A stretch of DNA of 64,000 bases from Mycobacteriales bacterium (GTDB lineage: Bacteria; Actinomycetota; Actinomycetes; Mycobacteriales; SCTD01), in the NCBI GenBank assembly GCA_038256525.1, contig JBBSKF010000001.1, forward strand, positions 9,706-73,705, read 5' to 3'. Both the position numbers and the translations under genes were made by a program. Below are positions 8,175 to 53,644 of the stretch, in pieces. Under the pieces are notes generated by a model. That model did not search any database, was not told where the DNA came from, and was given only the letters and a program-made list of their open reading frames with translations. How positions within the stretch are numbered: the stretch's first letter is position 1; every line of letters begins with the position of its first letter.

Positions 8175-8753
8175 TTACGGCTTGCCGGTGCCCTCAGGCT
8201 TGCCGGCACCGTCTGACTTGCCCGTCACGTCGGGCTTGCCGGTGCCCTCGGGCTTGCCGGCACCGTCTGACTTGCCGGTTACGTCAGGCTTGCCGGTGCC
8301 CTCCGGCGCGGTGCTCCCGGGATCGGCTGCCTTGTCAGGCTTGGCTGCCTCGTCAGGCTTGCCGGTCTTGTCGGTGTCCTCGACGTCCTTGCCGCAGTCG
8401 CTCTTGGCGGCCTGTGAGACGAGCGCACCGCGACCGGGGCCCTTGGGCAGCGAGTGGACGTACGCCGAGATGTTCTGCCCGTGGGTCTTGGTCGGATCGC
8501 AGACGAAGGGAGCTGCGGGAGCCTGCGCGCCGCGCTGGCTCTCGCGCTGCAGCTTGGCGAGCTTGGCCAAGCCGCGTTTCTCGGCGCCCTGGCTGTTCTC
8601 GGCGGCCGGAGCGGGCGCCGGGCTCTGCGCGGCCACGGTGTGAACGACGACTGTGCCACCACCGACGACCGCCGCCGTGGCGATCGCGGTGCCGGTGACA
8701 AGCACGCCGACCCGGGCCTTGGCTGCGAGCAGGGACATCAGAGGTCGGGACAC
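8175..8753 (-). CDS. Membrane-anchored or secreted repeat protein
   Basis: N-terminal TM/signal anchor (VGVLVTGTAIATAAVVGG). The C-terminus consists of GKPEGTGKPDVTGKSDGA repeats encoded by a 54-bp tandem repeat. Confidence 0.6.
   Translation of the reverse strand: MSRPLMSLLAAKARVGVLVTGTAIATAAVVGGGTVVVHTVAAQSPAPAPAAENSQGAEKRGLAKLAKLQRESQRGAQAPAAPFVCDPTKTHGQNISAYVHSLPKGPGRGALVSQAAKSDCGKDVEDTDKTGKPDEAAKPDKAADPGSTAPEGTGKPDVTGKSDGAGKPEGTGKPDVTGKSDGAGKPEGTGKP
8179..8306. repeat. 54-bp tandem repeat, about 2.4 copies, inside the 3' end of the 8175-8753 CDS
   Basis: Units at 8179-8232 and 8233-8286 are near-identical (ggcttgccggtgccctcRggcttgccggcaccgtctgacttgcc...). A partial third unit runs to 8306. 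Confidence 0.85.
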
Positions 8754-13121: not shown

Positions 13122-13868
13122 ATGTGTAGGCATGCGGCCTGGTTGGGTCGGCCCCGCACGCTGCGGGATCTTCTCGTCGACCCGCCGTACGGGCTTGTGC
13201 AGCAGTCCTTCTCGCCACGCCGACAGCGCTACGGCACCGTCAACGCCGACGGCTTCGGGGTGGGGTGGTTCTCGGCTGAGCGGACCGCGCCGGCTCGCTA
13301 CCGACGGGCGGTGCCGATCTGGTCGGACCCGTCGTTCGCGTCGCTCGCCGGGGTGGTGCGCTCGGGGTGCGTGCTCGGCGCGGTGCGCTCGGCGACGGTC
13401 GGCGGTCCGGGCGGGGAGGAGGCGTGCGCGCCGTTCCTGCTGCCCGGGGGGGTGCTGCTCTCGCACAACGGTGCGGTGCCGGTCGCCGCGATCGCGCCGC
13501 TCGTGTCACCGGCCGCGCTGGGGGCTGTCGGCTCGACCGTCGACAGCGCCTTTGTCGCGGCATCGGTCGCGGACCGCCTCGCCGGACCGTCCGGCGGGGG
13601 GCTCGCCGCGGCGCTTGCCGCCACTGTGAGGGCGGTCGCGGCCGTCGCCCCGGCGGCGCGGCTGAACCTGCTCGCCACGGACGGGGCCGTGGTCGCGGCG
13701 ACGACCTGGGGCGACACCCTGTGCTTCCGGATCGCCGACGGGGGAGTGGCGGTTGGCTCGGAGCCCTCGGATGACGAGGCCGGCTGGACCGATGTCCCCG
13801 ACCGCAGCCTGCTCGAGCTCTCCGGTGACGGATGCACCGTCACCGCTCTTTCGGAAGGTGTCCGATGA
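13122..13868 (+). CDS. egtC: Class II glutamine amidotransferase EgtC
   Basis: [10 protein letters not shown]-terminal nucleophile Cys. It sits between egtB and egtD. Confidence 0.85.
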
Positions 13869-14830
13869 CTCGGCTCGACCGCCACCTCGGCCCCGACGCG
13901 ATGCGCGAGGCTCTCGAGGCCGACGTGCGGGCCGGACTGACCGCGACGCCGAAGACGCTTCCCCCCAAGTGGTTCTACGACGCCAGGGGATCAGCCCTGT
14001 TCGACGAGATCACCCGGCTGCCGGACTACTACCCCACCCGCAGCGAGCGGGCGGTCCTCCGCGAGCGGTCGGCCGAGATCGCCGAGCTGACCGGCGCGGA
14101 CACCCTTGTCGAGCTCGGAAGCGGCACGTCGGAGAAGACCCGGCTGCTTCTCGACGCCCTCTCGGCCGCCGGAACGCTGCGGCGCTTCATCCCGTTCGAC
14201 GTCGACGAGTCGGTCCTCACGATGGCCGGGAAGTCGATCGATCAGGAGTATCCCGGCATCGAGGTGCACGCTGTCGTCGGCGACTTCGAGCACCACCTGT
14301 CGCTGATCCCCGCCGGGGGCCGGCGCCTGTTCGCCTTTCTGGGCGGGACCATCGGCAACCTGCTGCCGGCCGAGCGCGCGTCGCTGCTGTCGAACCTCGC
14401 CTCCACGATGGCCTCCGGTGACGCCCTGCTGCTCGGCACCGACCTCGTGAAGGACCCGGCCAGGCTGATCGCGGCTTACGACGACTCGAGTGGTGTCACC
14501 GCCGACTTCAACCGCAACGTGCTGCGTGTCGTCAACCGCGAGCTGGACGGGGACGCCGACGTGGATGCCTTCGCTCACGTAGCGGTCTGGGACGCCGAGC
14601 AGGAGTGGATCGAGATGCGCTTGCGGTCGCTGCGGACGCAGACCGTCCGGCTCGAGGCGCTCGACCTCGACGTCGAGTTCGCCGAGGGTGAGCTGCTGCG
14701 TACCGAGATCAGCGCGAAGTTCCGCTCGGAGCGGGTGCTGGAGGAGCTCAGCGAGGCCGGTCTGCTGCTGTTGCGGTGGTGGACCGACGAGGGGGGCGAG
14801 TTCGGCGTCAGCCTGTCGGTGAAGAGCTGA
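13865..14830 (+). CDS. egtD: L-histidine N-alpha-methyltransferase EgtD
   Basis: [32 protein letters not shown] and [13 protein letters not shown] fold. ATG 13865 overlaps the egtC TGA (ATGA). Confidence 0.9.
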
Positions 14831-14887
14831 CGCACGAGAGGCCGCCAGGCGGAGCCAAGCTGCCCAGCTGGTGCGTGACCCCGTTGG

Positions 14888-15020
14888 CCCGCCCGCCCGC
14901 CCAGCCCCCAGCCCCCAGCCCCCAGTCCCCAGCCCTCGCTGATCATGCAGTTGTTGCTCGCCTGCTGAGCGTGAGGGGTGTGCAGTAACTCCATGATCAG
15001 CGCGGGGTTTGGGGTGGCGG
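14888..15020. repeat. Palindromic intergenic element, copy 1 (C-tract arm, 58-nt core GATCATG...CATGATC, G-tract arm)
   Basis: (CCCCCAG)n tracts at 14900-14937, core at 14941-14998 and GGGGTTTGGGGTGG at 15004-15017. The core is the same length as the core at 38056-38113 and identical at 43 of 58 positions (manual alignment). Confidence 0.7.
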
Positions 15021-15033
15021 CAGACTGCGACCC

Positions 15034-16098
15034 ATGAACCTGCCGTGGATCGACGACCGCGTCCCGACGACGGTCGTGCACCTGGACGTCGCGGGCGCCG
15101 GGCGGCCGTCCCGGGCGGTGCTCGCCGCCGAGATCGCCCATCTGCAGGCCGAGGCGGAGGGCGGCGGCTACGTCGCGCAGTCCCACGCCGAGCCCGCCGT
15201 CGATGCCGCCCGGGCGGCGCTCGGCGCGATGGTCGGCCTGACCGGCGACGACGTCTGCTTCCTCGACGGAGCGGGCACGGCGTTCGCGACCCTCCTGGCT
15301 GCCTGGCCGCTGCCACGCGGCGCCCGGATCGGGATGGTCCCCAGCGAGTACGGCGCCAATGCCCGGGCCCTTCGCCGGCTGGCGCCCGAGCGCGGCTGGC
15401 AGCTGGTGGTCCTGCCGGTTGACGAGCTCGGTCGGATCGTCGATGTGCCGGCCGATCTCGACCTGCTGACCTTCCCTCAGGTGGCCAGCCAGCGCGGCAT
15501 CGCACAGCCGGTCGGCGAGGTCTTCGACTCGGGTGCGCCGCTGCTGCTCGACGTCGCGCAGTCGCTCGGTCAGGTCGAGGTGCCGCCGGGGTGCGCGGCC
15601 TATGTCGGCACGTCGCGCAAGTGGCTGTGCGGCCCGCGCGGTGTCGGCTTCGCGGTCGTCGACCCGGTCGTGCAGGCCGCCCTCGTCGAGCCACCGACAC
15701 TTGCGCCCACGCATGGCTCGGGGATGCGGCGGTGGGAGGCGCAGGAGGCCCATGTCGCCGGCCGGGTCGGCCTGTCGGTGGCTGCGCAGGAGTGGACTCC
15801 GGAGCTGTTGCCGGAGATCCACCGGCTTGCCGCGCAGCTGCGCGCGCAGGTGGCGGACACTCCTGGCTGGCAGGTCCGGGAGCCGGTGGACGAGCCGACC
15901 GGGATCACCACGCTGTCCGGGGGTGACCCGGTGGCGACACGGGCCGCCCTGCTCGCCGACGGCTTCGTCACCTCCGCGATACCGACGAGTCGCGCGGACG
16001 ACCTCGCCGGGCCGGTGCTGCGCATGTCCACCGCCGCCTGGGTGCGCGACGACGAGCTGGAGCGGCTCGCCCGGACGCTGGCTCGTCGTACGAAGTAG
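15034..16098 (+). CDS. egtE: PLP-dependent C-S lyase EgtE
   Basis: Aminotransferase class V-like protein with a TSRKW lysine region. It is the last gene of the egt cluster. Confidence 0.8.
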
Positions 16099-19076: not shown

Positions 19077-19622
19077 TCAGTCCGGGCGCGGCCCACCGGG
19101 GGACACTCGCGCGGGGGGCAGTCGGAAGCGACGGAAGACTGTGGAGCGCAACACGCCGTACCCGATGTGGTTGGTCATCTTGCGCTCGTCCGGGAAGTCG
19201 GCGCGCACGTTGCGCCGGATCGCCCCGGCCGTCAGCACGACGTCGGCGATCATCGCGAGGATGCCGGCCAGCCAGACGGTCAGGGCGAGGTCGAGGACCC
19301 GCCGGTTGCCCGATATCTGCGCGATGACCAGCAGCAGGGCGAGCGGCAGCAGCAGCACTCCCACGTTCCGCCGGCGGTCGACCGTGTCCCGGACCACCGC
19401 GCGGACCGGCCCCGCGTCACGCTTTGCGAGGTAGCGCTCCTCACCCCGGGCGGCGCCCTCCTTCACGCGGGTACGGGAGGCGGCCGCCTGCTCCCGGGCA
19501 CGCTTGGCCGCCTCCTTCCGCGTCTGCGGCGGTGGTGCGACCGGGCCGGTGCGCCGGCGCTGCGCCTCGCTGCGCTTGGGCGTCGGGCGGCCCTTGCCGG
19601 TCGGGGGATTGAGGGAACTCAC
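19077..19622 (-). CDS. DUF3043 family membrane protein
   Basis: Basic N-terminus (GKGRPTPKRSEAQ) followed by two TM helices, as in actinobacterial DUF3043 proteins. GTG start at 19622. Confidence 0.7.
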   Translation of the reverse strand: MSSLNPPTGKGRPTPKRSEAQRRRTGPVAPPPQTRKEAAKRAREQAAASRTRVKEGAARGEERYLAKRDAGPVRAVVRDTVDRRRNVGVLLLPLALLLVIAQISGNRRVLDLALTVWLAGILAMIADVVLTAGAIRRNVRADFPDERKMTNHIGYGVLRSTVFRRFRLPPARVSPGGPRPD

Positions 19623-35770: not shown

Positions 35771-37449
35771 CCTTGCTCGCGGAGGCCACCACCAGCCCGG
35801 TGCAGGTGCGCCGGCCGTCGCCCGGCCCGGGCTCGAAGATCACCAAGGTCCTCACCACCACCGACCACAAGACCATCGGCATGCTCTACCTGTGCACGTC
35901 GTTCGCGTTCTTCCTGGCGGCCGGCTTCATGGCGATGCTCATCCGGGCCGAGCTGGGCCAGCCAGGGCTGCAGATCGTCAGCCCGGAGCAGTACAACCAG
36001 CTGTTCACCATGCACGGCACGATCATGATGTTCCTGTTCGCCCCGCCGGCGGCGTACGGCTTCACGAACTACATCATGCCGTTGCAGATCGGCGCGCCGG
36101 ACATGAGCTTCCCGCGCCTGAACGCCTTCTCGTACTGGCTCTACCTGTTCGGCGGGCTGACCGTCCTGGCCGGCTTTCTCGCCCCCGAGGGTGCTGCGTC
36201 GTTCGGCTGGTTCGCCTACGCACCCCTGAACGACATCATCCGCTCGCCCTCGATCGGCGCCGACCTGTGGATCGTGGGGCTCGCGGTGTCCGGGCTCGGC
36301 ACCATCCTGGGGGCCGTCAACTTCATCACGACCATCATCACCCTGCGGGCTCCCGGCATGACCATGTTCCGGATGCCGATCTTCACCTGGAACATGCTGG
36401 TCACCTCGATCCTGGTCCTGCTGGCCTTCCCGGTCCTGACCGCGGCGCTGTTCGCGCTGCTGGCCGACCGGCACCTCGGGGCGCAGGTCTACAACCCCGA
36501 CAACGGTGGGGCGATCCTGTGGCAGCACCTGTTCTGGTTCTTCGGCCATCCTGAGGTCTACATCATCGCCCTGCCCTTCTTCGGGGTGATCACCGAGATC
36601 ATCCCGGTGTTCAGCCGCAAGCCGGTGTTCGGCTACAAGGGGCTGGTCTTCGCAACGCTCGGCATCGGCGCGCTGTCGCTGACCGTGTGGGCCCACCACA
36701 TGTACCCGACCGGCGCGGTATATCTACCGTTCTTCGCCTTCCTGAGCTTCCTCATCGCCGTTCCGACCGGCGTCAAGTTCTTCAACTGGATCGGCACGAT
36801 GTGGCGCGGCCAGCTCACGTTCGAGACGCCGATGCTGTTCGCGATCGGCTTTCTGATCACCTTCCTGCTCGGTGGTCTCACCGGTGTGCTGTTGGCTGCG
36901 CCGCCCATCGACTTCCACGTCAGCGACACCTACTTCGTGGTGGCCCACTTCCACTACGTCGTGTTCGGCACCGTGGTGTTCGCCTTCTTCGGCGGCGTCT
37001 ACTTCTGGTTCCCCAAGCTGACCGGCCGGATGATGAACGACCGGCTCGGCAAGGTCCACTTCTGGACCCTGTTCGTGGGCTTCCACCTCACCTTCCTCGT
37101 GCAGCACTGGGTCGGGGCGGAGGGGATGCCGCGCCGCTATGCCGACTACCTGCCGAGTGACGGCTTCACCACGCTGAACATGATCTCGACGGTCGGGGCC
37201 TTCGTGCTCGGTGCCTCGACGCTGCCGTTCATCTACAACGTGGTCGTGAGCTTCCGCCGCGGCGAGCGGGCTCTCAGTGACGACCCGTGGGGCTTCGGCA
37301 ACTCCCTCGAGTGGGCGACGTCCTGCCCACCGCCGCGGCACAACTTCGTGACCATGCCCCGCATCCGCTCGGAGCGGCCCGCCTTCGACCTGCACTTCCC
37401 GCAGGTGGCCGGCAAGGCCGACTTCCATGCCTCCCCGGAAGCGAAGTGA
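35767..37449 (+). CDS. ctaD: Cytochrome c oxidase subunit I
   Basis: [21 protein letters not shown] and HHMY motifs in 560 aa. Its start overlaps the ctaC stop. Confidence 0.95.
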
Positions 37450-37453
37450 TTCG

Positions 37454-37921
37454 GTGAAGGTCGAGGGCTACCTGTTCGCCCTGCTGGCGGCATTCCTGGT
37501 GCCGGTGACGGTGATCTACTGGCTGCTGTCCAAGGATCCCACCGGTACGGCGTGCCTGATCATGTCCATCGGGCTCGCCTTCATGGTGGGCTGGTATCTG
37601 CTGTTCACCGCGCGCCGGATGGACGCCCGCCCCGAGGACCGCCCGGATGCCGAGATCAGTGAGGGCTCCGGAGAGGTCGGCTTCTTCCCGCCGCACTCCT
37701 GGTGGCCGATCGCCATGGCGGGGGCGTTCACTCTCACCATGCTCGGCACCATCATCGGCCCGTTCCTCGTGATGATCGGCGCGGCCACGCTGGTCGTGGC
37801 GGCCGGCGGCTTCCTGTTCGAGTACTACGTCGGCGTGAACCGGACGCAGGGGTACACCGTCGGGGCGGTGCAGGCGATGGGGGAGCAGCCGACCAGCACG
37901 CGCAAGTTCCTCGGCGAATAG
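37454..37921 (+). CDS. ctaF: Cytochrome c oxidase subunit IV (actinobacterial CtaF)
   Basis: VKVEGYLFALLA... with four TM helices, immediately after ctaD. GTG start at 37454. Confidence 0.8.
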   Translation: MKVEGYLFALLAAFLVPVTVIYWLLSKDPTGTACLIMSIGLAFMVGWYLLFTARRMDARPEDRPDAEISEGSGEVGFFPPHSWWPIAMAGAFTLTMLGTIIGPFLVMIGAATLVVAAGGFLFEYYVGVNRTQGYTVGAVQAMGEQPTSTRKFLGE

Positions 37922-38025
37922 CTCAGGTCGACCGCCGCTGCCGGAGTCGGGCCAAGGGGCCGGCGAGTCGGGGGCGCCGGGCCTGTGGAGGCGGCTGCGC
38001 AGCGTGGCGAGGCGGCGGGGTGGCG

Positions 38026-38133
38026 AGCCCCGAGCCCCGATCCCCCAACCCCCGCCGATCATGGAGTTGTGGCACACCCGTTGAGCGTGCCGGCCGAGCA
38101 CAAGTTCCATGATCGGCGAGAGGAAGGCGGGGG
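38026..38133. repeat. Palindromic intergenic element, copy 2
   Basis: C-tracts (CCCCGAGCCCCGATCCCCCAACCCCCG), the 58-nt core at 38056-38113 (GATCATGGAGTTGTGGC...GCACAAGTTCCATGATC) and a G-rich arm. It has the same orientation and architecture as copy 1. Confidence 0.7.
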
Positions 38134-38186
38134 TCCACCTGCTGTCGGTGCTCCGGCCAGGACAGCGGCACGGGCCGGGGAGCCGG

Positions 38187-39821
38187 CTACGAGGGTCGGT
38201 TCGTCTTGCTGGTCGCTTCGAGCTCGGGCAGCGTCGCTTCGGGCCGCTCCGCTGATCCGTTCTTCGAGCCGTTCTTGGAACCGTTGCGACGGGGCGAGAA
38301 GAAGCCGTCTTTATCCGGCGCCGGCTCGACCGCTGCCTTCTCATATCCGGGGCCGAGCGGCGGTGGAGCGCTGTGGTCCAGCGCCTCGGCCTCCACGCCG
38401 GTGAGCCCGAGCTGGTAGACGAGCGGCAACGGGACGGTTTCCTCGACGAACTCGCCGGAGGGCAGCCGCCGGATGGTGCCCGACTCGATGCCGTGGTGCA
38501 GCAGCTCCTGGTCACTGTGCTGCAGCGCGAGGCACCAGCGCTTGGTGATCACGTAGACCAGCGGCGGCACCACGATCAAGGCAATGCGTCCTGCGATCGT
38601 CATGGAGTTGACGTTCACGCCGAAGACCGAGGCGATCACGTCGTTGCCACCCGCGATGACGAGGATGATGTAGAAGGCGAGGGACATGGCGCCGATGGCG
38701 GTCCGCACCGGAACGTCGCGCGGACGGTCCAACAGGTTGTGGTAGTCGCGGTCGCGGGTGAAGCGTGCCTCGAGCCACGGGTAGACCATCATCACCGTGA
38801 ACATCAGCCCGGGCATGATCACTGTCGGGAGCAGGACGTTGAACGGCACCGTGTAGCCGAGGCCGCTCAGCTCCCAGTTGGGCATGAGGCGCAACGAGCC
38901 GTCGAGGAAGCCGATGTACCAGTCGGGCTGTGAGCCGGCGGTCACCTGCGAGGCGTTGTACGGCCCGTACAGCCAGATGGGGTTGATCTGCGCCAATCCG
39001 CCGAGCGCGGCCATCACCGCGAACACCAGGAAGAAGAAGCCACCGGCCTTGGCGGCATAGGCGGGATAGAGCCGGGAGCCGACCACGTTGTTCTCGGTCC
39101 GGCCCGGTCCGGCGAACTGGGTGTGCTTCTGGTACCAGATCATCAGCATGTGGAAGGTGATCAGGCCGAGGATGGCCAGCGGGATCACGAAGATGTGCAA
39201 GGCGTAGAGCCGGTCGAGGAACTCTGTGCCGGGGTATTCGCCGCCGTAGATCAGGAACGTGGCCCACGAGCCGATGACCGGAACCGACAAGATGATGCCG
39301 TGGAAGATGCGGGCGCCGGTGCCGGACAGCAGGTCGTCCGGCAGTGAGTAGCCGGCGAAGCCTTCGAGCAGACCGAGAACCAGCAGCAGCACGCCGATGA
39401 GCCAGTTGAGCTCGCGCGGCTTGCGGAAGGCACCGGTGAAGAACACCCGCATGAGGTGCACCACGATCGCGGCGATGAACAGCAGGGCCGCCCAGTGATG
39501 GATCTGCCGCATGATCAGGCCGCCGCGCACGTCGAAGCTGATGTAGAGCGTCGACTCGTAGGCCTGCGACATCGTCACGCCCTTGAGCGGGATGTAGCCG
39601 CCGTCGTAGACGACCTCGGTCAGGGACGGTGTGTAGAAGAACGACAGATAGGTCCCGGTGAGCAGCAGGATGATGAAGCTGTAGAGCGCGATCTCGCCGA
39701 GCATGAACGACCAGTGGTCCGGAAAGACCTTGTTGAGGCTCTTGCGGACGTAGCCGGCGGCGCCGAGCCGTTCGTCCACCCAGCCGGCCGTGGTGGCGGG
39801 CGCCTTTTCCAGACGGCTCAT
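38187..39821 (-). CDS. qcrB: Cytochrome bc1 complex cytochrome b subunit
   Basis: FPDHWSFMLGEIALYSF, the heme-ligand His region and a long actinobacterial C-terminal extension. ATG 39821 overlaps the qcrA stop (ATGA). Confidence 0.9.
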   Translation of the reverse strand: MSRLEKAPATTAGWVDERLGAAGYVRKSLNKVFPDHWSFMLGEIALYSFIILLLTGTYLSFFYTPSLTEVVYDGGYIPLKGVTMSQAYESTLYISFDVRGGLIMRQIHHWAALLFIAAIVVHLMRVFFTGAFRKPRELNWLIGVLLLVLGLLEGFAGYSLPDDLLSGTGARIFHGIILSVPVIGSWATFLIYGGEYPGTEFLDRLYALHIFVIPLAILGLITFHMLMIWYQKHTQFAGPGRTENNVVGSRLYPAYAAKAGGFFFLVFAVMAALGGLAQINPIWLYGPYNASQVTAGSQPDWYIGFLDGSLRLMPNWELSGLGYTVPFNVLLPTVIMPGLMFTVMMVYPWLEARFTRDRDYHNLLDRPRDVPVRTAIGAMSLAFYIILVIAGGNDVIASVFGVNVNSMTIAGRIALIVVPPLVYVITKRWCLALQHSDQELLHHGIESGTIRRLPSGEFVEETVPLPLVYQLGLTGVEAEALDHSAPPPLGPGYEKAAVEPAPDKDGFFSPRRNGSKNGSKNGSAERPEATLPELEATSKTNRPS

Positions 39822-40951
39822 GTCCCACGCTCCCAATAGCTCGGACCGATCGGCTCCGAAAAGTCGCCTTGCGCGATGAAGTATCCCTCGTCATCGACCG
39901 AGATCGCCAGTTGGGGAAGGGCGCGGGCGGCCGGTCCGAAGATGACCGTGGCTCCGGTGCTCGCGTCGAAGACCGACTGGTGGCAGGGGCACAGCAGGTT
40001 GTGGGTCTGCTGCTCGTACAGCTTGACCGGGCAGCCCAGGTGGGTGCAGATGCTCGAGTAGACGACATGCCCCTTGTAGGCCCAGTCCTGTTGCTCGCCC
40101 TCGAGCTTGAGCTCCTCGGGACGCATGCGGATGAGCAGTGCCGGTGAGTCGGCCGCGATCGTGCCGTGGAAGACGTCGGGGAAGACGCTCTCGACCCCGC
40201 CGATCTGCAGATCGCCGAGCTTGACCGGAGTGCCGTTCTGGCGGATGAGACGGACCCCCTCGACCCACGAGGTCGTCGCCAGCACCCGCTCCTTGTGCTG
40301 GAAGCGCCCGAGGAAGCCGACGAACGGCAACGGCAGCAGCGCGAGCGAGCCGGCTCCGAGCAGCAAGGTGTTGCGCAACAGCTTGCGGCGGGGCAGCCCG
40401 GTGTCGGCCAGGCCCTGCCGAAGCGCCTTCGCGGTCGCGGCGCGCTCGTCCGGCGCGGAGCCGAAGGGGTGTCGCTCCTGCACGGCCTCGTCGTCGACCA
40501 TCAGGAGCTTGGCCCACAGCACCGTCCCGGCGCCGACGCCGCCCAGGGCCATGGCCATGAACACCCCGAGCAGGGGGGTGAAGTAGGCGTTGCCCGGCGC
40601 GCCGAACTCCTGCTCCTGGGCGAAGAACGTCACGATGAAGCTGATCACGCCGATCACGGCCAGCAGGAACAGCGAGGCGACCTTGCGTTCGGCGATGGCG
40701 GCGTCGCGCTCGCTGAGTGGGGCGTGTGGCGGGTGCGCCGCGGGCTGGGCGGGGTGATCGCTGTGCCGCTGTCCGTCGCCGTGACCGGAGGTGTACAGGT
40801 CGGTGCCGCTGCTGCTGTTGGTGTGACTGCTGGAGGAGACGTCGGACCCGCGGGTGTCGCCGGGACCGCTGGCCGAACTGCTCGGCCGGGGTGAGCTCAG
40901 CTTTTCGGGCAACGAGCCCGAGTCGGGGTGCTCGGGCCGGTCGTCGCTCAT
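39818..40951 (-). CDS. qcrA: Cytochrome bc1 complex Rieske iron-sulfur subunit
   Basis: CTHLGCPV...CPCHQSVF Rieske motifs and N-terminal TM helices. ATG 40951 overlaps the qcrC stop (ATGA). Confidence 0.9.
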   Translation of the reverse strand: MSDDRPEHPDSGSLPEKLSSPRPSSSASGPGDTRGSDVSSSSHTNSSSGTDLYTSGHGDGQRHSDHPAQPAAHPPHAPLSERDAAIAERKVASLFLLAVIGVISFIVTFFAQEQEFGAPGNAYFTPLLGVFMAMALGGVGAGTVLWAKLLMVDDEAVQERHPFGSAPDERAATAKALRQGLADTGLPRRKLLRNTLLLGAGSLALLPLPFVGFLGRFQHKERVLATTSWVEGVRLIRQNGTPVKLGDLQIGGVESVFPDVFHGTIAADSPALLIRMRPEELKLEGEQQDWAYKGHVVYSSICTHLGCPVKLYEQQTHNLLCPCHQSVFDASTGATVIFGPAARALPQLAISVDDEGYFIAQGDFSEPIGPSYWERGT

Positions 40952-47544: not shown

Positions 47545-49236
47545 TCAGAGCAGGCCGCGACCGTTGACCAGGCCCCGCAGGACGAGAGCGAGGCCGAGCA
47601 ACACGACGATGCCGGCCGTACCGAGCGGGAGCAGCCGGGCGAGCGTGCGACCGCGACCGGTGGTCCAGCCGCGGCGGTCGAGGAGGCCGCGCGCGCGCAG
47701 CAGCAGCAGACCGGCCAGCGTCAGGGTGATGGCCATGCCGATCCCGTAGAACAGGACCAGCAGCACGCCGAACCACGCACGGCCGAGCACGGTGGCGCTC
47801 AGCAGGACGAGCAGCGCCGACGGACTGGGTACGAGGCCGCCCGCGACGCCCATGCCGGCGAGGGTCTTCCAGGACAGCGGCCCCTCGGGCAGCGGGGCGT
47901 GGCTGTGCGCCTTGCCGCCGCCGTGGCTGTGGAGGAGCGGCTTGGTGGCGACGGCCAGCCCGCCGCCGGGCGGCGCCGCGCCGGCAGGGACGAGCTCCTC
48001 CGCACTCTCCGGGTGCGGGTGCGGGTGGTCGTGCTCGTGCGGGTGGTCGTGCTCGTGCGGATGGTCGTGCTGGTGCGGGTGCGGGTCCTCGTGCGGGTGG
48101 TCGTGCTGGTGCGGGTGCGGGTCCTCGTGCGGGTGCGGGTGCCCGTCCCCGTGCTCCGTGTGCTCGTGATCTGGCACCGCGCGCAACCGGCGCAGCGCCA
48201 GCACCAGCAGATAGCCGCCGACCAGCGCGAGCAGCACCCCGGACAGCACCTCGGTGAAGGGCACCACGAGCTCTGGTGCGGCAAGCGCCCCCGCCGCAAG
48301 CACCGCACCGAGCAGCAGGACGCTGATCGTGTGGGTGAACGTCACCACCGCCCCGAGCTGCAGGGCCTGTCGGCGGGTGCCTCGCTGGCCGACGAGGTAG
48401 GCCGCCATGACCGTCTTGCCGTGACCCGGCGCCAGCGCATGCAGCACGCCGAACAGCACCGATGCCGCGATCGAGATCAGGGCGAAGGGCGCCGTCAGGT
48501 CCGGCCGGCCCAGGAAGTCGGTGAAGAAGCGGGACACCCGGTCCAGCCCGCGTGGCGCCACCTGGTCCTCACTCGCAGCGCCCGTGGCGGTCCCGGCCGA
48601 GCAGGCGGCACCGGTGCGTACCGAGAATGCCGCCGTCGTCACATTCGACGGCGACTGCAGCAGGTCCTCCGGATAGACCGTGAGCAACCCGCTCGGGCTC
48701 TCGGTCGGGACCGTGGACTGCCGCAGGTCCCCGCACCGGGACGCCGCGGTCACCTCCCGCCAGCCGTTGCGCTCACCGGCCAGCGGGTCGGTGAAGGTGA
48801 CGGTGGAGCGCGGCCGGATGCCGGTGTCGTACGCACACTCGATCCGCACGGTCGGCAGCCCGGCGGCGCCGGGGGCCGAGCGGCCCGAGAAGCCGGTCAC
48901 CGTCAGCGCGGCGCGGGCGCCGTCCACCTCCGCGACCAGCAGTGACCCGACCCGCGAGCACTCCCTGCCGGCGTACGCATCGAGCTCGGCCTCGGACAGC
49001 GTCCCGTCACCGGAGGTGTCCACGCCGGTACGGGACTGGCCGAGCTGCACCGCCGGGATCTCGGCCAGGTCGATGACGTGCTCGACGAGCAGCCCGTCCT
49101 CGGTGACGACCAGCCGGTCGGCGGTGTTGACCGTGAAGTTGCCGAGCGGATGGGCCAGCGCCGCGCCGGCGGGCAGGAGGGCGAGGCCAAGAGCCACCAC
49201 GACCAGGGGCAGGGCACGTCGGAGCCAGCGCTGCAT
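47545..49236 (-). CDS. NicO/RcnA-type nickel/cobalt transporter fused to an N-terminal extracytoplasmic domain
   Basis: Signal peptide ending ALA followed by HPLGNFTVN, HALAPGHGKT NicO signature, His-rich loop (HPHPHEDPHPHQHDHPHE...) and C-terminal TM helices. GGAGG RBS before ATG 49236. Confidence 0.8.
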   Translation of the reverse strand: MQRWLRRALPLVVVALGLALLPAGAALAHPLGNFTVNTADRLVVTEDGLLVEHVIDLAEIPAVQLGQSRTGVDTSGDGTLSEAELDAYAGRECSRVGSLLVAEVDGARAALTVTGFSGRSAPGAAGLPTVRIECAYDTGIRPRSTVTFTDPLAGERNGWREVTAASRCGDLRQSTVPTESPSGLLTVYPEDLLQSPSNVTTAAFSVRTGAACSAGTATGAASEDQVAPRGLDRVSRFFTDFLGRPDLTAPFALISIAASVLFGVLHALAPGHGKTVMAAYLVGQRGTRRQALQLGAVVTFTHTISVLLLGAVLAAGALAAPELVVPFTEVLSGVLLALVGGYLLVLALRRLRAVPDHEHTEHGDGHPHPHEDPHPHQHDHPHEDPHPHQHDHPHEHDHPHEHDHPHPHPESAEELVPAGAAPPGGGLAVATKPLLHSHGGGKAHSHAPLPEGPLSWKTLAGMGVAGGLVPSPSALLVLLSATVLGRAWFGVLLVLFYGIGMAITLTLAGLLLLRARGLLDRRGWTTGRGRTLARLLPLGTAGIVVLLGLALVLRGLVNGRGLL

Positions 49237-51712: not shown

Positions 51713-51941
51713 CCCCTCGGCCCCCCTCGCCCCCCCTCGCGCACTTCCCCCGGGGGGCACTTCCCCCCTCGCCCCCTGCCCCCTGCCCCCCTCGCGCACT
51801 TCCCCCCTCGCGCACTTCCCCCCTCGCGCACTTCCCCTGCAGGACGACACCGCCTGGCGGCGCAGACGTGACATACCGCAGGGGAAGTCGCAGGGTCGGG
51901 GTCGGGGTCGGGGCCGGGGCCGGGGCCGGGGCCGGGGCCGG
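51713..51941. repeat. Composite intergenic repeat block: C-rich 16-mers, 11-bp inverted repeat, G-rich hexamers
   Basis: CTCGCGCACTTCCCCC occurs at 51736-51751, 51791-51806, 51807-51822 and 51823-51838. Inverted repeat ACTTCCCCTGC (51830-51840) / GCAGGGGAAGT (51878-51888). (GGGGTC)3(GGGGCC)5 spans 51893-51941. Confidence 0.85.
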
Positions 51942-51966
51942 TCTCGCCGCGGCATGCTTGTCGGAG

Positions 51967-52327: not shown

Positions 52328-53644
52328 GTGCGCGAGCTGCACGTCGTCGCGATGAGCGAGGACGGCCGACACGTCGTGCTCGCCACGCGCAAGGGGGTGA
52401 CCCGCGGCGAGTTCAAGGTGGCGCTCGACGATCGCCTGGCGGCGGCGATGCGCGGCGAGTTGCCACGGCCCGGGGAGCGTTCGGCGCGGGACATCGTCCT
52501 GTCTCCGAAGGAGATCCAGGCCCGCCTGCGGGCGGGTGAGTCGACCGAGCAGATCGCTGCCTCCGCCGGGGTGCCGGTTGCGCGGGTCGAGCGATATGCC
52601 GGGCCGGTGCTGTCCGAGCGGGAGAAGGTGATCAACGGCGCGCGTGCGGCGGTGTTGGCGCGCAGCCGTAGAGGCGTGTCCAGCCTGCCGATGGGTGAGG
52701 CGGTCGCGCAGCACCTGTCCCAGGCCGCCGGCTACAAGCCCGAATCCACCCGCTGGTCGGCCCGTCGCGAGCCGTCCGGCCGCTGGGTGGTCGCGCTGTC
52801 CTATGTCGCCCGCGCACAGACCCGCACCGCCGCGTGGCGCTTCGACCCGGGCACCCGGGAGATCACCGCCCTCGATGCTGCCTCGACCGCGCTCGCTCAC
52901 GTCGATCCGACCCTCGGCCAGCGGGCAGCGGCCAATGAGCGGCTGCCCCCGCCGCAGGAGCTCCGGGCGCCCCGCCGGGCGACGGGGCGGGTGTCGGGGC
53001 GGGCGGCGGCAGCGACGACCGCCGGTAAGCCGTCGTCGCGGCCGGCTGCCGCGACGGTCAAACCGGCCGTCAAGGCTCCGTCGGTCAAGACTCCGGCAGT
53101 GAAAGCTCCGGCAGTGAAGGCTCCGGCAGCGAAGGCTCGGTCCGTTCGGGCGCCCGTCATCACGGGGACGGGCAAGCGGGTGGTCGCCTCCGGACGCCTG
53201 CTTCCCGGCCGGACCATCGCTGCACCGGGGGCGCAGGTCTCGGGCGCTCCCCCAGCGGTTGCCGCACCGTCCGGGTCGGCCCCGGCCGTGCCTGAGACCA
53301 CCGCGCCTGAGACCACCGCGCCTGAGACCACCGCGCCCGACACCACCGCGCCCGACACCACCCCGGCAGCCCCCCCGACCCCCGCAGCAGCGGAGGCACC
53401 GAGCGGTCCGCCGACGCTTCGGGTCGTCCCGCACCCCGCACCCGCCGAGCAGGAGCCGGCCGCGAGCGCCGAGCCGGAAGCAGGGGCGGACGGTTCGGCC
53501 CCCAGCCCTGCCCCGCCCCCACCGCCCCCCCCGCCGGCCCGGCGTGCCGCCGGTGCGCGCGCGTCCGTACCCGCCTGGGCGGACGTCCTGCTCGGCATCG
53601 CGCCGGTCGACCGGCCGGGTGGCGCCGACAAGGATCGGGACTGA
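52328..53644 (+). CDS. sepH: Septation protein SepH (DUF3071)
   Basis: MRELHVVAMSEDGRHVVLAT, LSPKEIQARLRAGESTEQIAASAGVPVARVERYAGPV (HTH) and a long Pro/Ala-rich disordered C-terminus. GGAGGA RBS. Confidence 0.75.
   Translation: MRELHVVAMSEDGRHVVLATRKGVTRGEFKVALDDRLAAAMRGELPRPGERSARDIVLSPKEIQARLRAGESTEQIAASAGVPVARVERYAGPVLSEREKVINGARAAVLARSRRGVSSLPMGEAVAQHLSQAAGYKPESTRWSARREPSGRWVVALSYVARAQTRTAAWRFDPGTREITALDAASTALAHVDPTLGQRAAANERLPPPQELRAPRRATGRVSGRAAAATTAGKPSSRPAAATVKPAVKAPSVKTPAVKAPAVKAPAAKARSVRAPVITGTGKRVVASGRLLPGRTIAAPGAQVSGAPPAVAAPSGSAPAVPETTAPETTAPETTAPDTTAPDTTPAAPPTPAAAEAPSGPPTLRVVPHPAPAEQEPAASAEPEAGADGSAPSPAPPPPPPPPARRAAGARASVPAWADVLLGIAPVDRPGGADKDRD

What the first reader, a model, noticed from the sequence alone, without database searches (positions are those of the whole stretch)
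14888..15020. Conserved palindromic intergenic element (copy 1) inside the ergothioneine operon, between egtD and egtE
A 58-nt core at 14941-14998 (GATCATGCAGTTGTTGC...TGAGCGTG...GCAGTAACTCCATGATC) recurs in the same orientation at 38056-38113. The two cores have identical length and 43 of 58 identical positions (manual alignment).

The core ends are inverted repeats of each other. Several differences between the copies keep the arms complementary (GGAGTTGTG/CACAAGTTCC versus GCAGTTGTTGC/GCAGTAACTCC). This pattern fits a selected hairpin in RNA or DNA, and not chance similarity.

Both copies are flanked on the left by runs of C4-5 tracts ((CCCCCAG)n here) and on the right by G-rich sequence, which extends the potential stem to about 130 nt. 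The C-tracts also give four or more G-runs on the minus strand (G-quadruplex potential). This copy ends 14 nt before the egtE ATG. It would therefore be transcribed within the egt mRNA and could affect egtE translation, mRNA processing or stability. It could also be a small non-autonomous mobile element (MITE/REP-like).
Basis: seen in the sequence. Interest (0 to 1): 0.6.

Follow-up and report, generated by a model that had tools for sequence, protein, structure and literature searches.

The report
Palindromic repeat tied to nuclease gene
The hairpin between egtD and egtE is not an ergothioneine regulator: it is a solitary copy of a dispersed palindromic DNA repeat of actinomycetes, and elsewhere pairs of these repeats always bracket a gene for a DNA-binding, Vsr-like nuclease, much as REP repeats flank their transposase in proteobacteria.

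Summary
Two 58-nt imperfect palindromes (14941-14998 and 38057-38114, 43/58 identical) lie on the + strand, each with a C-rich left flank and a G-rich right flank.

They belong to a large family. Pattern scans found about 170 copies in Frankiales/Mycobacteriales MAGs and soil metagenomes. Sister size classes of 55 and 69 nt occur in Micromonospora. The termini GATCATG...CATGATC are conserved, the inner stem covaries, and the central TGAGCGTG is family-specific.

Relatives lack the element at both window sites. At egtD-egtE the spacer is 23 nt instead of 203, so the window copies are lineage-specific insertions.

No evidence favours an RNA function on one strand:
- G·U-type and A·C-type mismatches are balanced.
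- Orientation relative to the upstream gene is random.
- There is no Rfam hit.

New finding: a roughly 290-aa gene is bracketed by two elements wherever both of its sides are visible. It encodes an AbiEi-like wHTH domain plus a DUF559/Vsr-like nuclease domain, whose closest solved fold is the catalytic domain of homing endonuclease I-Bth0305I. This held in 8 loci at 6 genomic sites, including 3 of 3 protein-seeded look-ups.

Best reading: a REP/REPIN-RAYT-like or MITE-like system with a different partner enzyme. That the nuclease mobilises the elements is inferred, not shown.

The parts
14941..14998 (+). Copy 1 core. A 58-nt imperfect palindrome, GATCATGCAGTT...TGAGCGTG...AACTCCATGATC, with the loop motif TGAGCGTG on the + strand.
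   Evidence: 75.6 bits.
14841..14940 (.). C-rich left flank of copy 1, including the (GCCC)5 array at 14887-14907 and the (CCCAGCC)5 array at 14900-14935. The minus strand carries a canonical G4 motif.
   Evidence: negative GC skew.
14999..15021 (.). G-rich right flank of copy 1 (AGCGCGGGGTTTGGGGTGGCGGC). It is partly complementary to the left flank.
   Evidence: (I6: 45-nt arms, 73% complementary).
14841..15021 (.). The 181-nt segment present in the window but absent from the 23-nt egtD-egtE spacer of a relative. Its ends are GCCGCCA.../...TGGCGGC, and it is flanked by AG on both sides, a possible 2-bp duplication.
   Evidence: and direct reading of the sequence.
38057..38114 (+). Copy 2 core, 58 nt, in the same orientation as copy 1.
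   Evidence: (66 bits).
38024..38056 (.). C-rich left flank of copy 2, with a (CGAGCCC)3 array. The minus strand carries a G4 motif.
38115..38137 (.). G-rich right flank of copy 2 (GGCGAGAGGAAGGCGGGGGTCC). It extends the stem.
13832..14830 (+). egtD, the gene upstream of copy 1.
   Evidence: TIGR03438, 361 bits.
15034..16098 (+). egtE-like PLP enzyme gene, downstream of copy 1. The best family is egtE, but the score is below NCBIfam's cut-off.
37427..37921 (+). Gene for cytochrome c oxidase subunit IV (ctaF). Copy 2 lies 135 nt after its stop codon.
38187..39836 (-). Cytochrome b gene (qcrB), convergent with ctaF. Copy 2 lies 72 nt from its stop codon.

Best explanation
The two window elements are solitary copies of a dispersed palindromic DNA repeat family that acts at the DNA level. 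The 58-nt class is found in Frankiales/Mycobacteriales-type actinomycetes, and 55- and 69-nt sister classes are found in Micromonosporaceae.

Each copy has four parts:
- conserved termini, GATCATGGAGTT...AACTCCATGATC;
- a covarying inner stem;
- a class-specific centre, TGAGCGTG in the 58-nt class;
- variable flanks that are C-rich on the 5' side and G-rich on the 3' side, and are often short tandem repeats.

Both window copies arrived by insertion after the lineage split from its sequenced relatives. They have nothing specific to do with ergothioneine.

The family's 'home' arrangement is element - gene - element. The gene encodes an AbiEi-like winged-helix DNA-binding module fused to a Vsr/DUF559-type nuclease.

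By analogy with REPIN-RAYT and with homing endonucleases, I infer the following, none of which is shown. The protein recognises the conserved termini or the extruded hairpin and nicks there. This spreads or maintains the elements, and lets the gene move between element sites. Solitary copies such as those in the window would then be its non-autonomous partners or landing sites.

Any effect on egtE would be a side effect. A hairpin ending 35 nt upstream of the ATG could add transcript pausing, processing or stability effects.

The confidence given covers the package. By my own estimate, 'dispersed DNA repeat, gained by insertion, linked to the nuclease gene' stands at about 0.85, and 'the nuclease mobilises or maintains the elements' at about 0.4.
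For: Shown:
1. The family is real and widespread. The genome scan was dominated by Micromonospora, with the 58-nt class in Frankiales/Mycobacteriales MAGs. The metagenome scan gave 55 loci and 72 copies.
2. Stem complementarity is kept by compensatory changes.
3. Insertion polymorphism is seen at both window sites. The relative L124-126 (EgtD 80% identical) has a 23-nt egtD-egtE spacer whose ends match the window sequence on either side of a 181-nt insert. Relatives L185/186 (CtaD 89%) have a 61-nt ctaF-qcrB spacer with no element, and L184 (CtaD 97%) also lacks it. The covariance model finds no copy in any of those loci.
4. The features fit DNA rather than RNA on one strand: G·U-type 120 versus A·C-type 152 mismatches, orientation relative to the upstream gene 11:13, no Rfam family, and no U-tract terminator.
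5. Gene association. tblastn finds the gene next to the element in 10 of about 170 element-seeded loci and nowhere else in about 1.3 Mb. An element lies on both sides of the gene in all 8 loci where both sides are visible. The reverse test was 3 for 3: homologues chosen only by protein sequence (L188, L189/190, L191) are bracketed by elements. The loci cover six different housekeeping sites: rho/rpmE, purC/purS, tsaD/rimI, next to purA, a G5-domain gene, and one unidentified site.
6. In the 58-nt class both flanking copies read TGAGCGTG on the gene's sense strand.
7. Protein identity. Pfam gives AbiEi_4 plus DUF559/REase_MTES_1575, and PADLOC gives AbiEi. The AF2 model has pLDDT 93.7. Its C-terminal domain matches the I-Bth0305I homing endonuclease catalytic domain (TM 0.80), Vsr and 3hrl; its N-terminal part matches the AbiEi antitoxin 6y8q and Rv2827c. 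The E..DG..H..D..R..N motif is invariant in 32 homologues.
8. Soft evidence: 85 of 120 homologues lie on contigs shorter than 1.7 kb, against about 25 of 120 for EgtD homologues. This is what one expects if assemblies break at flanking repeats.
Against: - No experiment or strain-level comparison shows movement, and none shows that the nuclease acts on the element. The link is co-location only.
- The nuclease genes sit at the same housekeeping sites in different organisms and in three Micromonospora species, so they look mostly vertically inherited. That fits a domesticated partner but not frequent transposition.
- The target-site duplication is at best 2 bp (AG) at one site, which could be chance.
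- Flanks differ between copies, which is unusual for a classical MITE.
- The window contains no such gene, and I could not check the rest of the source genome.
- Flanking copies are in direct orientation in the 58-nt class but inverted in Micromonospora (and direct reading), so there is no single geometry.
- The test of 'gene inserted into a pre-existing solitary element' (outer flanks complementary to each other) failed.
- Sampling was by exact patterns and capped, so copy numbers per genome are unknown.
Confidence: 0.65

Rival explanations
1. The elements are mainly host-selected 3'-end signals: bidirectional terminators or pause sites, possibly Rho-dependent, or mRNA-stabilising hairpins. 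A transcript entering from either side meets a C-rich, G-poor stretch (rut-like), then a strong hairpin, then G-rich sequence prone to G4 or R-loop formation. Under this reading the sequence conservation reflects a host factor, and the nuclease gene is merely insulated by the elements.
For: - Solitary copies often begin 16-32 nt after a stop codon, and convergent gene pairs are the commonest context.
- Flank polarity is very consistent: GC skew is -0.33 on the left and +0.31 on the right. G4 motifs occur on the 3' side of each strand in 27-28% of copies, against 0.6% in the background, and with the wrong polarity in only 1 of 159.
- The palindrome would act the same way on both strands, which fits the random orientation.
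Against: - Copy 1 sits inside an operon whose relatives have a 23-nt spacer, where a terminator would do harm.
- There is no U-tract.
- G·U pairs are not in excess.
- A plain terminator does not need 12-nt termini conserved across orders, or a conserved loop.
- This reading does not explain why one nuclease gene family is always bracketed by the elements.
- It could still be a secondary, co-opted role.
Confidence: 0.15
2. The elements are operator or decoy binding sites for the AbiEi-like winged-helix module. AbiEi antitoxins autoregulate by binding inverted repeats in front of their own gene. The dispersed copies would be extra binding sites with no mobility of their own, spread by ordinary duplication or recombination.
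For: - The N-terminal 190 residues resemble AbiEi and Rv2827c.
- An element always lies just upstream of the gene, followed by a YTGTGGAC motif found only in the gene-bearing loci.
- One arm is better conserved than the other.
Against: - Elements also lie downstream of the gene, and far more copies are solitary and remote from any such gene.
- The 181-nt insertion into a tight operon junction needs an insertion mechanism.
- A fused, apparently intact nuclease domain is not needed for repression.
Confidence: 0.1
3. The hairpin is a cis-regulatory RNA specific to the egt operon, controlling egtE translation or processing of the egt mRNA.
For: Only its position: it lies within the egtD-egtE spacer and close to the egtE start.
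Against: - It is absent from the egt operon of relatives.
- The same element lies between ctaF and qcrB, and next to dozens of unrelated genes.
- It has no strand preference.
- Rfam has no match.
Confidence: 0.02

Closest known systems
REP / REPIN elements and their RAYT (TnpA-REP) transposases in Proteobacteria (my own knowledge of Nunvar et al. 2010 and Bertels & Rainey 2011; not retrieved here)
   Same: - Short, GC-rich, imperfect palindromes in many intergenic copies, often just after stop codons.
- Clusters and tandem arrays occur, and in Micromonospora two types sit side by side.
- A single protein-coding gene is itself flanked by the repeats and sits at conserved chromosomal sites.
- Solitary repeats far outnumber the gene.
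   Different: - The partner protein is not a Y1 HUH transposase. It is an AbiEi-like wHTH fused to a Vsr/DUF559 PD-(D/E)XK-type nuclease.
- The termini are GATCATG, not GTAG-type.
- Each arm is not itself a hairpin.
- The flanks are C-rich on the 5' side and G-rich on the 3' side, with microsatellites and G4 motifs.
- The hosts are Actinomycetota.
MITEs (miniature inverted-repeat transposable elements)
   Same: - Terminal inverted repeats.
- Small size and no coding capacity.
- Insertion polymorphism between relatives.
- A longer gene-carrying form with the same termini.
   Different: - No DDE transposase.
- No clear target-site duplication.
- The interior and flanks vary strongly between copies, while length is fixed per class.
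- The long form carries a whole element at each end, not one arm at each end.
EDxHD / Vsr-like homing endonucleases (I-Bth0305I, PDB 3r3p; PMC3239194)
   Same: The nuclease domain of the associated protein superposes on the I-Bth0305I catalytic domain (TM 0.80, rmsd 3.0 Å). The gene is free-standing and looks selfish.
   Different: - It is not inside an intron or intein.
- Its DNA-binding part is AbiEi-like.
- It is bracketed by hairpin repeats.
- No cleavage site is known.
AbiEi antitoxins of type IV AbiE toxin-antitoxin systems (PDB 6y8q; Rv2827c, 1zel)
   Same: The N-terminal wHTH plus following domain. AbiEi binds inverted repeats upstream of its own gene (my own knowledge).
   Different: There is no AbiEii nucleotidyltransferase partner gene. 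A nuclease is fused instead, and the repeats are dispersed across the genome.
Integron attC sites
   Same: Imperfect palindromes of 55-70 nt whose ends are conserved and whose centres vary, with recurrent mismatched positions.
   Different: - Different end sequences.
- No integrase and no cassette array.
- The copies lie between housekeeping genes.

Membership tests
REP/REPIN-RAYT system | Many short imperfect palindromes in intergenic DNA | tested here: met
REP/REPIN-RAYT system | The associated gene is a Y1 (HUH) RAYT transposase flanked by the repeats | tested here: not met
   The flanked gene is AbiEi_4 plus DUF559/MTES_1575, not Y1_Tnp. No other gene family recurs near the elements.
REP/REPIN-RAYT system | Conserved GTAG-type tetranucleotide at the foot of the hairpin | tested here: not met
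   The termini are (C)GATCATG...CATGATC(G).
MITE | Terminal inverted repeats and presence/absence between relatives | tested here: met
MITE | Target-site duplication of fixed length | tested here: inconclusive
   The only candidate is a 2-bp AG at the egtD-egtE site. The boundaries at site 2 could not be mapped.
MITE | An autonomous parent that encodes a transposase and has the same ends | tested here: inconclusive
   A gene-carrying form exists, but it encodes a nuclease of unproven function and carries whole elements at both ends.
Curated structured RNA (Rfam 15) | Match to a covariance model at the gathering score | tested here: not met
   only chance-level miRNA and snoRNA hits.
Structured cis-regulatory RNA in general | Strand-specific signature: G·U pairs tolerated over A·C, and fixed orientation relative to the transcript | tested here: not met
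   120 versus 152; 11 versus 13.
Intrinsic terminator | GC-rich hairpin followed by a U-tract | tested here: not met
   The flanks are G-rich, not T-rich.
Integron attC | R''/R' core sites (RYYYAAC/GTTRRRY) and an adjacent integrase or cassette array | tested here: not met
   The end sequences differ and the neighbours are housekeeping genes. No integrase search was made.
Vsr/EDxHD-type homing endonuclease gene | Vsr-like catalytic fold with conserved acidic and His residues | tested here: met
Vsr/EDxHD-type homing endonuclease gene | Cleaves the empty allele and is copied into it | not testable with these tools
   I found no pair of empty and filled alleles at one site. This needs biochemistry or strain-level comparisons.
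AbiE toxin-antitoxin | AbiEi antitoxin paired with an AbiEii nucleotidyltransferase gene | tested here: not met
   The AbiEi-like part is present, but the gene stands alone between two elements and housekeeping genes.

The most novel reading that the evidence does not exclude
Actinomycetes harbour a repeat-enzyme partnership that parallels REPIN-RAYT but was built from different parts. An AbiEi-wHTH/Vsr-like nuclease recognises GATCATG-terminated hairpins, nicks at their feet and thereby spreads or homogenises them. The gene hops between hairpin sites in the manner of a homing endonuclease. Repeated nicking and repair at the hairpin base generates the polar C-rich/G-rich microsatellites and G4 motifs that flank the elements.
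Probability: 0.35. Interest if true: 0.8.

Novelty: new variant of a known kind. Interest (0 to 1): 0.62.

Why it matters
REP-like repeats are among the commonest non-coding features of bacterial genomes. Their only well-understood partner enzymes are HUH transposases, and those are known mainly from proteobacteria.

This family suggests that high-GC actinomycetes, including antibiotic producers such as Micromonospora, have an analogous system built on a Vsr-like nuclease. Three consequences would follow:
- It would give a function to a large group of proteins annotated only as 'DUF559/endonuclease domain' or 'very-short-patch-repair endonuclease'.
- It would explain recurrent assembly breaks and odd intergenic hairpins in these genomes.
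- It would offer a structure-specific nuclease plus a defined DNA hairpin as a possible tool.

For annotation, hairpins like the one in the egt operon should be flagged as repeat insertions and not as operon-specific riboregulators.

Tried and rejected
- **Rfam.** Gathering and E-value thresholds gave nothing.
- **Viral contig scan.** Three hits, all chance matches in unrelated AT-rich or coding DNA.
- **Plasmid and phage collections.** No match for the element or the nuclease.
- **Literature.** I searched by sequence string; Micromonospora/Frankia with palindromic repeats or MITEs; REPIN/RAYT with Actinobacteria; DUF559; MTES_1575; and Vsr-like with palindromes. No description of this family or association turned up. 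Subscription-only papers are not covered.
- **Small-ORF readings.** I considered a 7-codon ORF on the + strand and MEL..HAQ..SMI on the - strand. I dropped both: the peptides are not conserved, the differences preserve the stem rather than the codons, and orientation relative to genes is random. This was not tested formally.
- **Third copy in the window.** The hit at 19248-19329 (16.6 bits) looks like a chance match.
- **Flanks as remnants of a deleted nuclease gene.** tblastn against the window and blastn-short of the flanks found nothing. A single CCTGTGGAGG motif lies 74 nt upstream of copy 2, at background frequency.
- **Gene inserted into a pre-existing solitary element.** This predicts that the outer flanks are complementary to each other. 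It was not supported.
- **Site-specific clades of the nuclease.** The signal is weak (69.6% identity for the rho-site pair, 65.6% for the purC pair), so this does not decide between vertical descent and movement.
- **Source organism.** It could not be named. The 100%-identical proteins lie on an unnamed 74-kb NCBI contig.

Full report
**Observation.** The window holds two 58-nt imperfect palindromes on the + strand, at 14941-14998 and 38057-38114. In the correct register 43 of 58 positions match. Both fold as hairpins better than shuffled controls. The 14-mer at their left end matches exactly only at these two places. Copy 1 lies in the 203-nt spacer between egtD (13832-14830) and an egtE-like gene (15034-16098), at the end of an egtABCD cluster. 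Copy 2 lies between the convergent ctaF and qcrB genes. Both have C-rich left flanks with short tandem repeats and G-rich right flanks. The minus strand of both left flanks carries a canonical G4 motif. Rfam has no family for the element.

**The family.** Apart from a few chance hits, these were Micromonospora and other Micromonosporaceae, plus Frankiales/Mycobacteriales MAGs. The copies fall into discrete length classes:
- 69 nt: GATCATGGAGTTGTGGTG...CACCACAACTCCATGATC.
- 55 nt.
- 58 nt, whose centre is CACGCTCAGC. This is the reverse complement of the window's GCTGAGCGTG.

A second scan of metagenome contigs, specific to the 58-nt class, gave 55 loci and brought the set to 72 copies. The common plan is [C-rich flank]-CGCC-GATCATGGAGTT-(covarying stem)-loop-(covarying stem)-AACTCCATGATC-GGCG-[G-rich flank]. 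Columns fixed by my patterns are invariant by construction. Copies found without them, as partners of seeded copies, in protein-seeded loci or by the covariance model, still keep GATCATG/CATGATC, while the loop varies. A covariance model built from 64 copies finds exactly two copies in the window: 75.6 and 66 bits, with the next hit at 16.6 bits looking like a chance match.

**Structure, and at which level it acts.** On 64 aligned copies, a single 35-pair helix is 74% paired, against 34-47% for slid controls. It has 199 cells changed on both sides, against 129 +/- 9 in shuffles; for example one pair is U-A in 25 copies and G-C in 24. Complementarity is therefore maintained. Several results argue against an RNA that works on one strand:
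- G·U-type and A·C-type mismatches are balanced, 120 against 152.
- Solitary copies face either way relative to the gene that ends next to them, 11 against 13.
- There is no U-tract.

This points to a DNA-level palindrome, or to something that works equally on both strands.

**Insertion.** In a relative whose EgtD is 80% identical, egtD and egtE are 23 nt apart: TAA-CGCCGCACGACAGACTGGACTTC-ATG. The window has CGCACGAG-AG-[181 nt]-AG-ACTGCGACCC in the same place. So 14841-15021 is an insert with ends GCCGCCA.../...TGGCGGC, and AG is a possible 2-bp duplication that could be chance. Two relatives at 87% EgtD identity also lack the element after egtD, but their downstream sequence differs. At the second site, relatives at 89% CtaD identity have a 61-nt ctaF-qcrB spacer without the element, and a 97% relative lacks it too, though with a different downstream gene. 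The covariance model finds no copy anywhere in those relatives' loci. Both window copies are therefore lineage-specific gains, and the element is not part of the conserved egt operon.

**Context.** Solitary copies are intergenic. The core typically starts 16-32 nt after a stop codon, and convergent gene pairs are the commonest setting. The flanks are strikingly polar:
- Mean GC skew is -0.33 in the 40 nt to the left and +0.31 in the 40 nt to the right.
- Canonical G4 motifs occur on the 3' side of the element on each strand in 45 and 43 of 159 copies, against 0.6% of background windows. The opposite polarity is seen once.
- Tandem repeats of period 4-30 cover 21.8% of the bases within 70 nt of an element, against 4.3% elsewhere in the loci. 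The 'elsewhere' sequence is mostly coding, so the contrast is inflated.

Tandem arrays of elements with 17-nt spacers also occur.

**The associated gene.** Clustering all plausible ORFs of the loci showed no dominant neighbour. One small cluster, however, lay directly against elements of different classes. tblastn with it found the gene next to the element in 10 element-seeded loci and nowhere else in about 1.3 Mb. In every locus where both sides of the gene can be seen, an element lies on each side: L017, L046, L133, L160, L171, and the protein-seeded L188, L189/190 and L191.

The reverse test used homologues picked only by protein similarity and contig length. All three were bracketed. The sites are ordinary housekeeping junctions: rho/rpmE, purC/purS, tsaD/rimI, next to purA, next to a G5-domain gene in three Micromonospora species, and one unidentified site.

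In the 58-nt class, both flanking copies read TGAGCGTG on the gene's sense strand, which is the orientation of both window copies on the + strand. In Micromonospora the two flanking copies are inverted relative to each other (and direct reading). A YTGTGGAC motif lies 7-80 nt after the upstream element in the gene-bearing loci only. Homologues are found on contigs shorter than 1.7 kb far more often than EgtD homologues are, 85 against about 25 of 120. This fits assemblies breaking at flanking repeats, but it is soft evidence.

**What the protein is.**
- Pfam and NCBIfam give AbiEi_4 at the N-terminus and DUF559/REase_MTES_1575 (Vsr-like) at the C-terminus.
- PADLOC models of AbiEi match the first roughly 200 residues.
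- No solved structure is detectable by sequence.
- An AlphaFold2 model built from 32 homologues is confident, with pLDDT 93.7.
- Foldseek matches the N-terminal part to the AbiEi antitoxin 6y8q and to Rv2827c. It matches the C-terminal 100 residues to the catalytic domain of homing endonuclease I-Bth0305I (TM 0.80), then to Vsr and to the DUF559 protein 3hrl.
- The E..DG..H..D..R..N positions are invariant, so the nuclease looks intact.
- No AbiEii partner gene is present.

**Interpretation.** The shown facts are these: a dispersed palindromic DNA repeat, gained by insertion at both window sites, whose family is tightly linked to a wHTH-Vsr nuclease gene. That the nuclease recognises and nicks the elements and thereby spreads or maintains them, or uses them as landing sites, is an inference. 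It rests on analogy with REPIN-RAYT and with homing endonucleases. Against frequent movement, the gene occupies the same sites in different organisms and looks largely vertically inherited. That resembles domesticated RAYTs. The specific model in which the gene inserts into a solitary element failed its test.

The polar C/G-rich, microsatellite-rich flanks are unexplained. They could reflect repeated nicking and repair, a termination or pausing function (a C-rich, rut-like stretch, then a hairpin, from either direction), or a more general property of hairpin sites in these genomes. The window holds a third, unrelated hairpin at 51836-51895 with the same kind of flanks.

**Known or new.** Nothing in Rfam or in the searchable literature describes this family or its link to DUF559/AbiEi genes. 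Subscription-only papers could not be searched. It works like a REP/REPIN-RAYT or MITE system but fails the defining membership features: it has no Y1 transposase, no GTAG foot and no clear target duplication. I therefore file it as a new variant of a known kind. The egt-specific riboregulator reading is not supported. A side effect on egtE expression remains untested.

Noticed in passing
window 51724-51942 (hairpin core about 51836-51895): A third, unrelated palindrome, ACTTCCCCTGCAGG...CCGCAGGGGAAGT (-29 kcal/mol). It is flanked on the left by C-rich tandem repeats, (CCCCCCTCGCGCACTT)n, and on the right by G-rich repeats, (GGTCGGGG/GGCCGGGG)n. This is the same polar flank architecture as the GATCATG elements, but with a different core and no homologue in the fetched loci.
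   Followed up: partly
L013, L015, L021, L024, L029, L034, L044, L048, L057, L095, L102, L121 (Micromonospora), about 25-35 nt to the right of the 69-nt element: A second 69-nt palindrome family, GATCTTGCAGTTTC...GAAACTGCAAGATC, sits next to one subclass of the 69-nt GATCATGGAGTT elements. Together they form composite units reminiscent of BIMEs. L072 209-289 carries a GATCTTGAC-type copy.
   Followed up: partly
L160 378-395, L188 9999-10010, L191 223-250, L151, L155, L133, L171, L046 (between the upstream element and the nuclease gene start): A YTGTGGAC motif occurs 7-80 nt after the upstream element in the loci that carry the nuclease gene. It is the complement of TTGTCCACA, which I recall as the Streptomyces DnaA-box consensus. 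It could be a promoter or operator.
   Followed up: partly
L161, L163, L176, L181, L131, L144, L150, L171: Tandem arrays of two or three elements. Several have 17-nt spacers, and L171 has extra partial right arms.
   Followed up: no
L031, L041, L097, L099, L111 (five Micromonospora species, same locus): The 69-nt element is kept at one orthologous site, and its interior accumulates substitutions. The ends look invariant, but all five loci were selected by a pattern that requires those ends.
   Followed up: partly
window 47992-48177, 8179-8373 and 53271-53375: Three arrays of tandem repeats with periods of 18, 18 and 15 nt, whose periods are multiples of 3 nt. They are unrelated to the finding.
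   Followed up: no
L128 1800-1870 (downstream of egtD in a relative with 87% identical EgtD): An inverted repeat, CTGTGGATAGCTGAAATCTTCTGTCCACAG, follows egtD where the window has its element. It contains the same TGTGGA/TCCACA words as the motif upstream of the nuclease genes.
   Followed up: no
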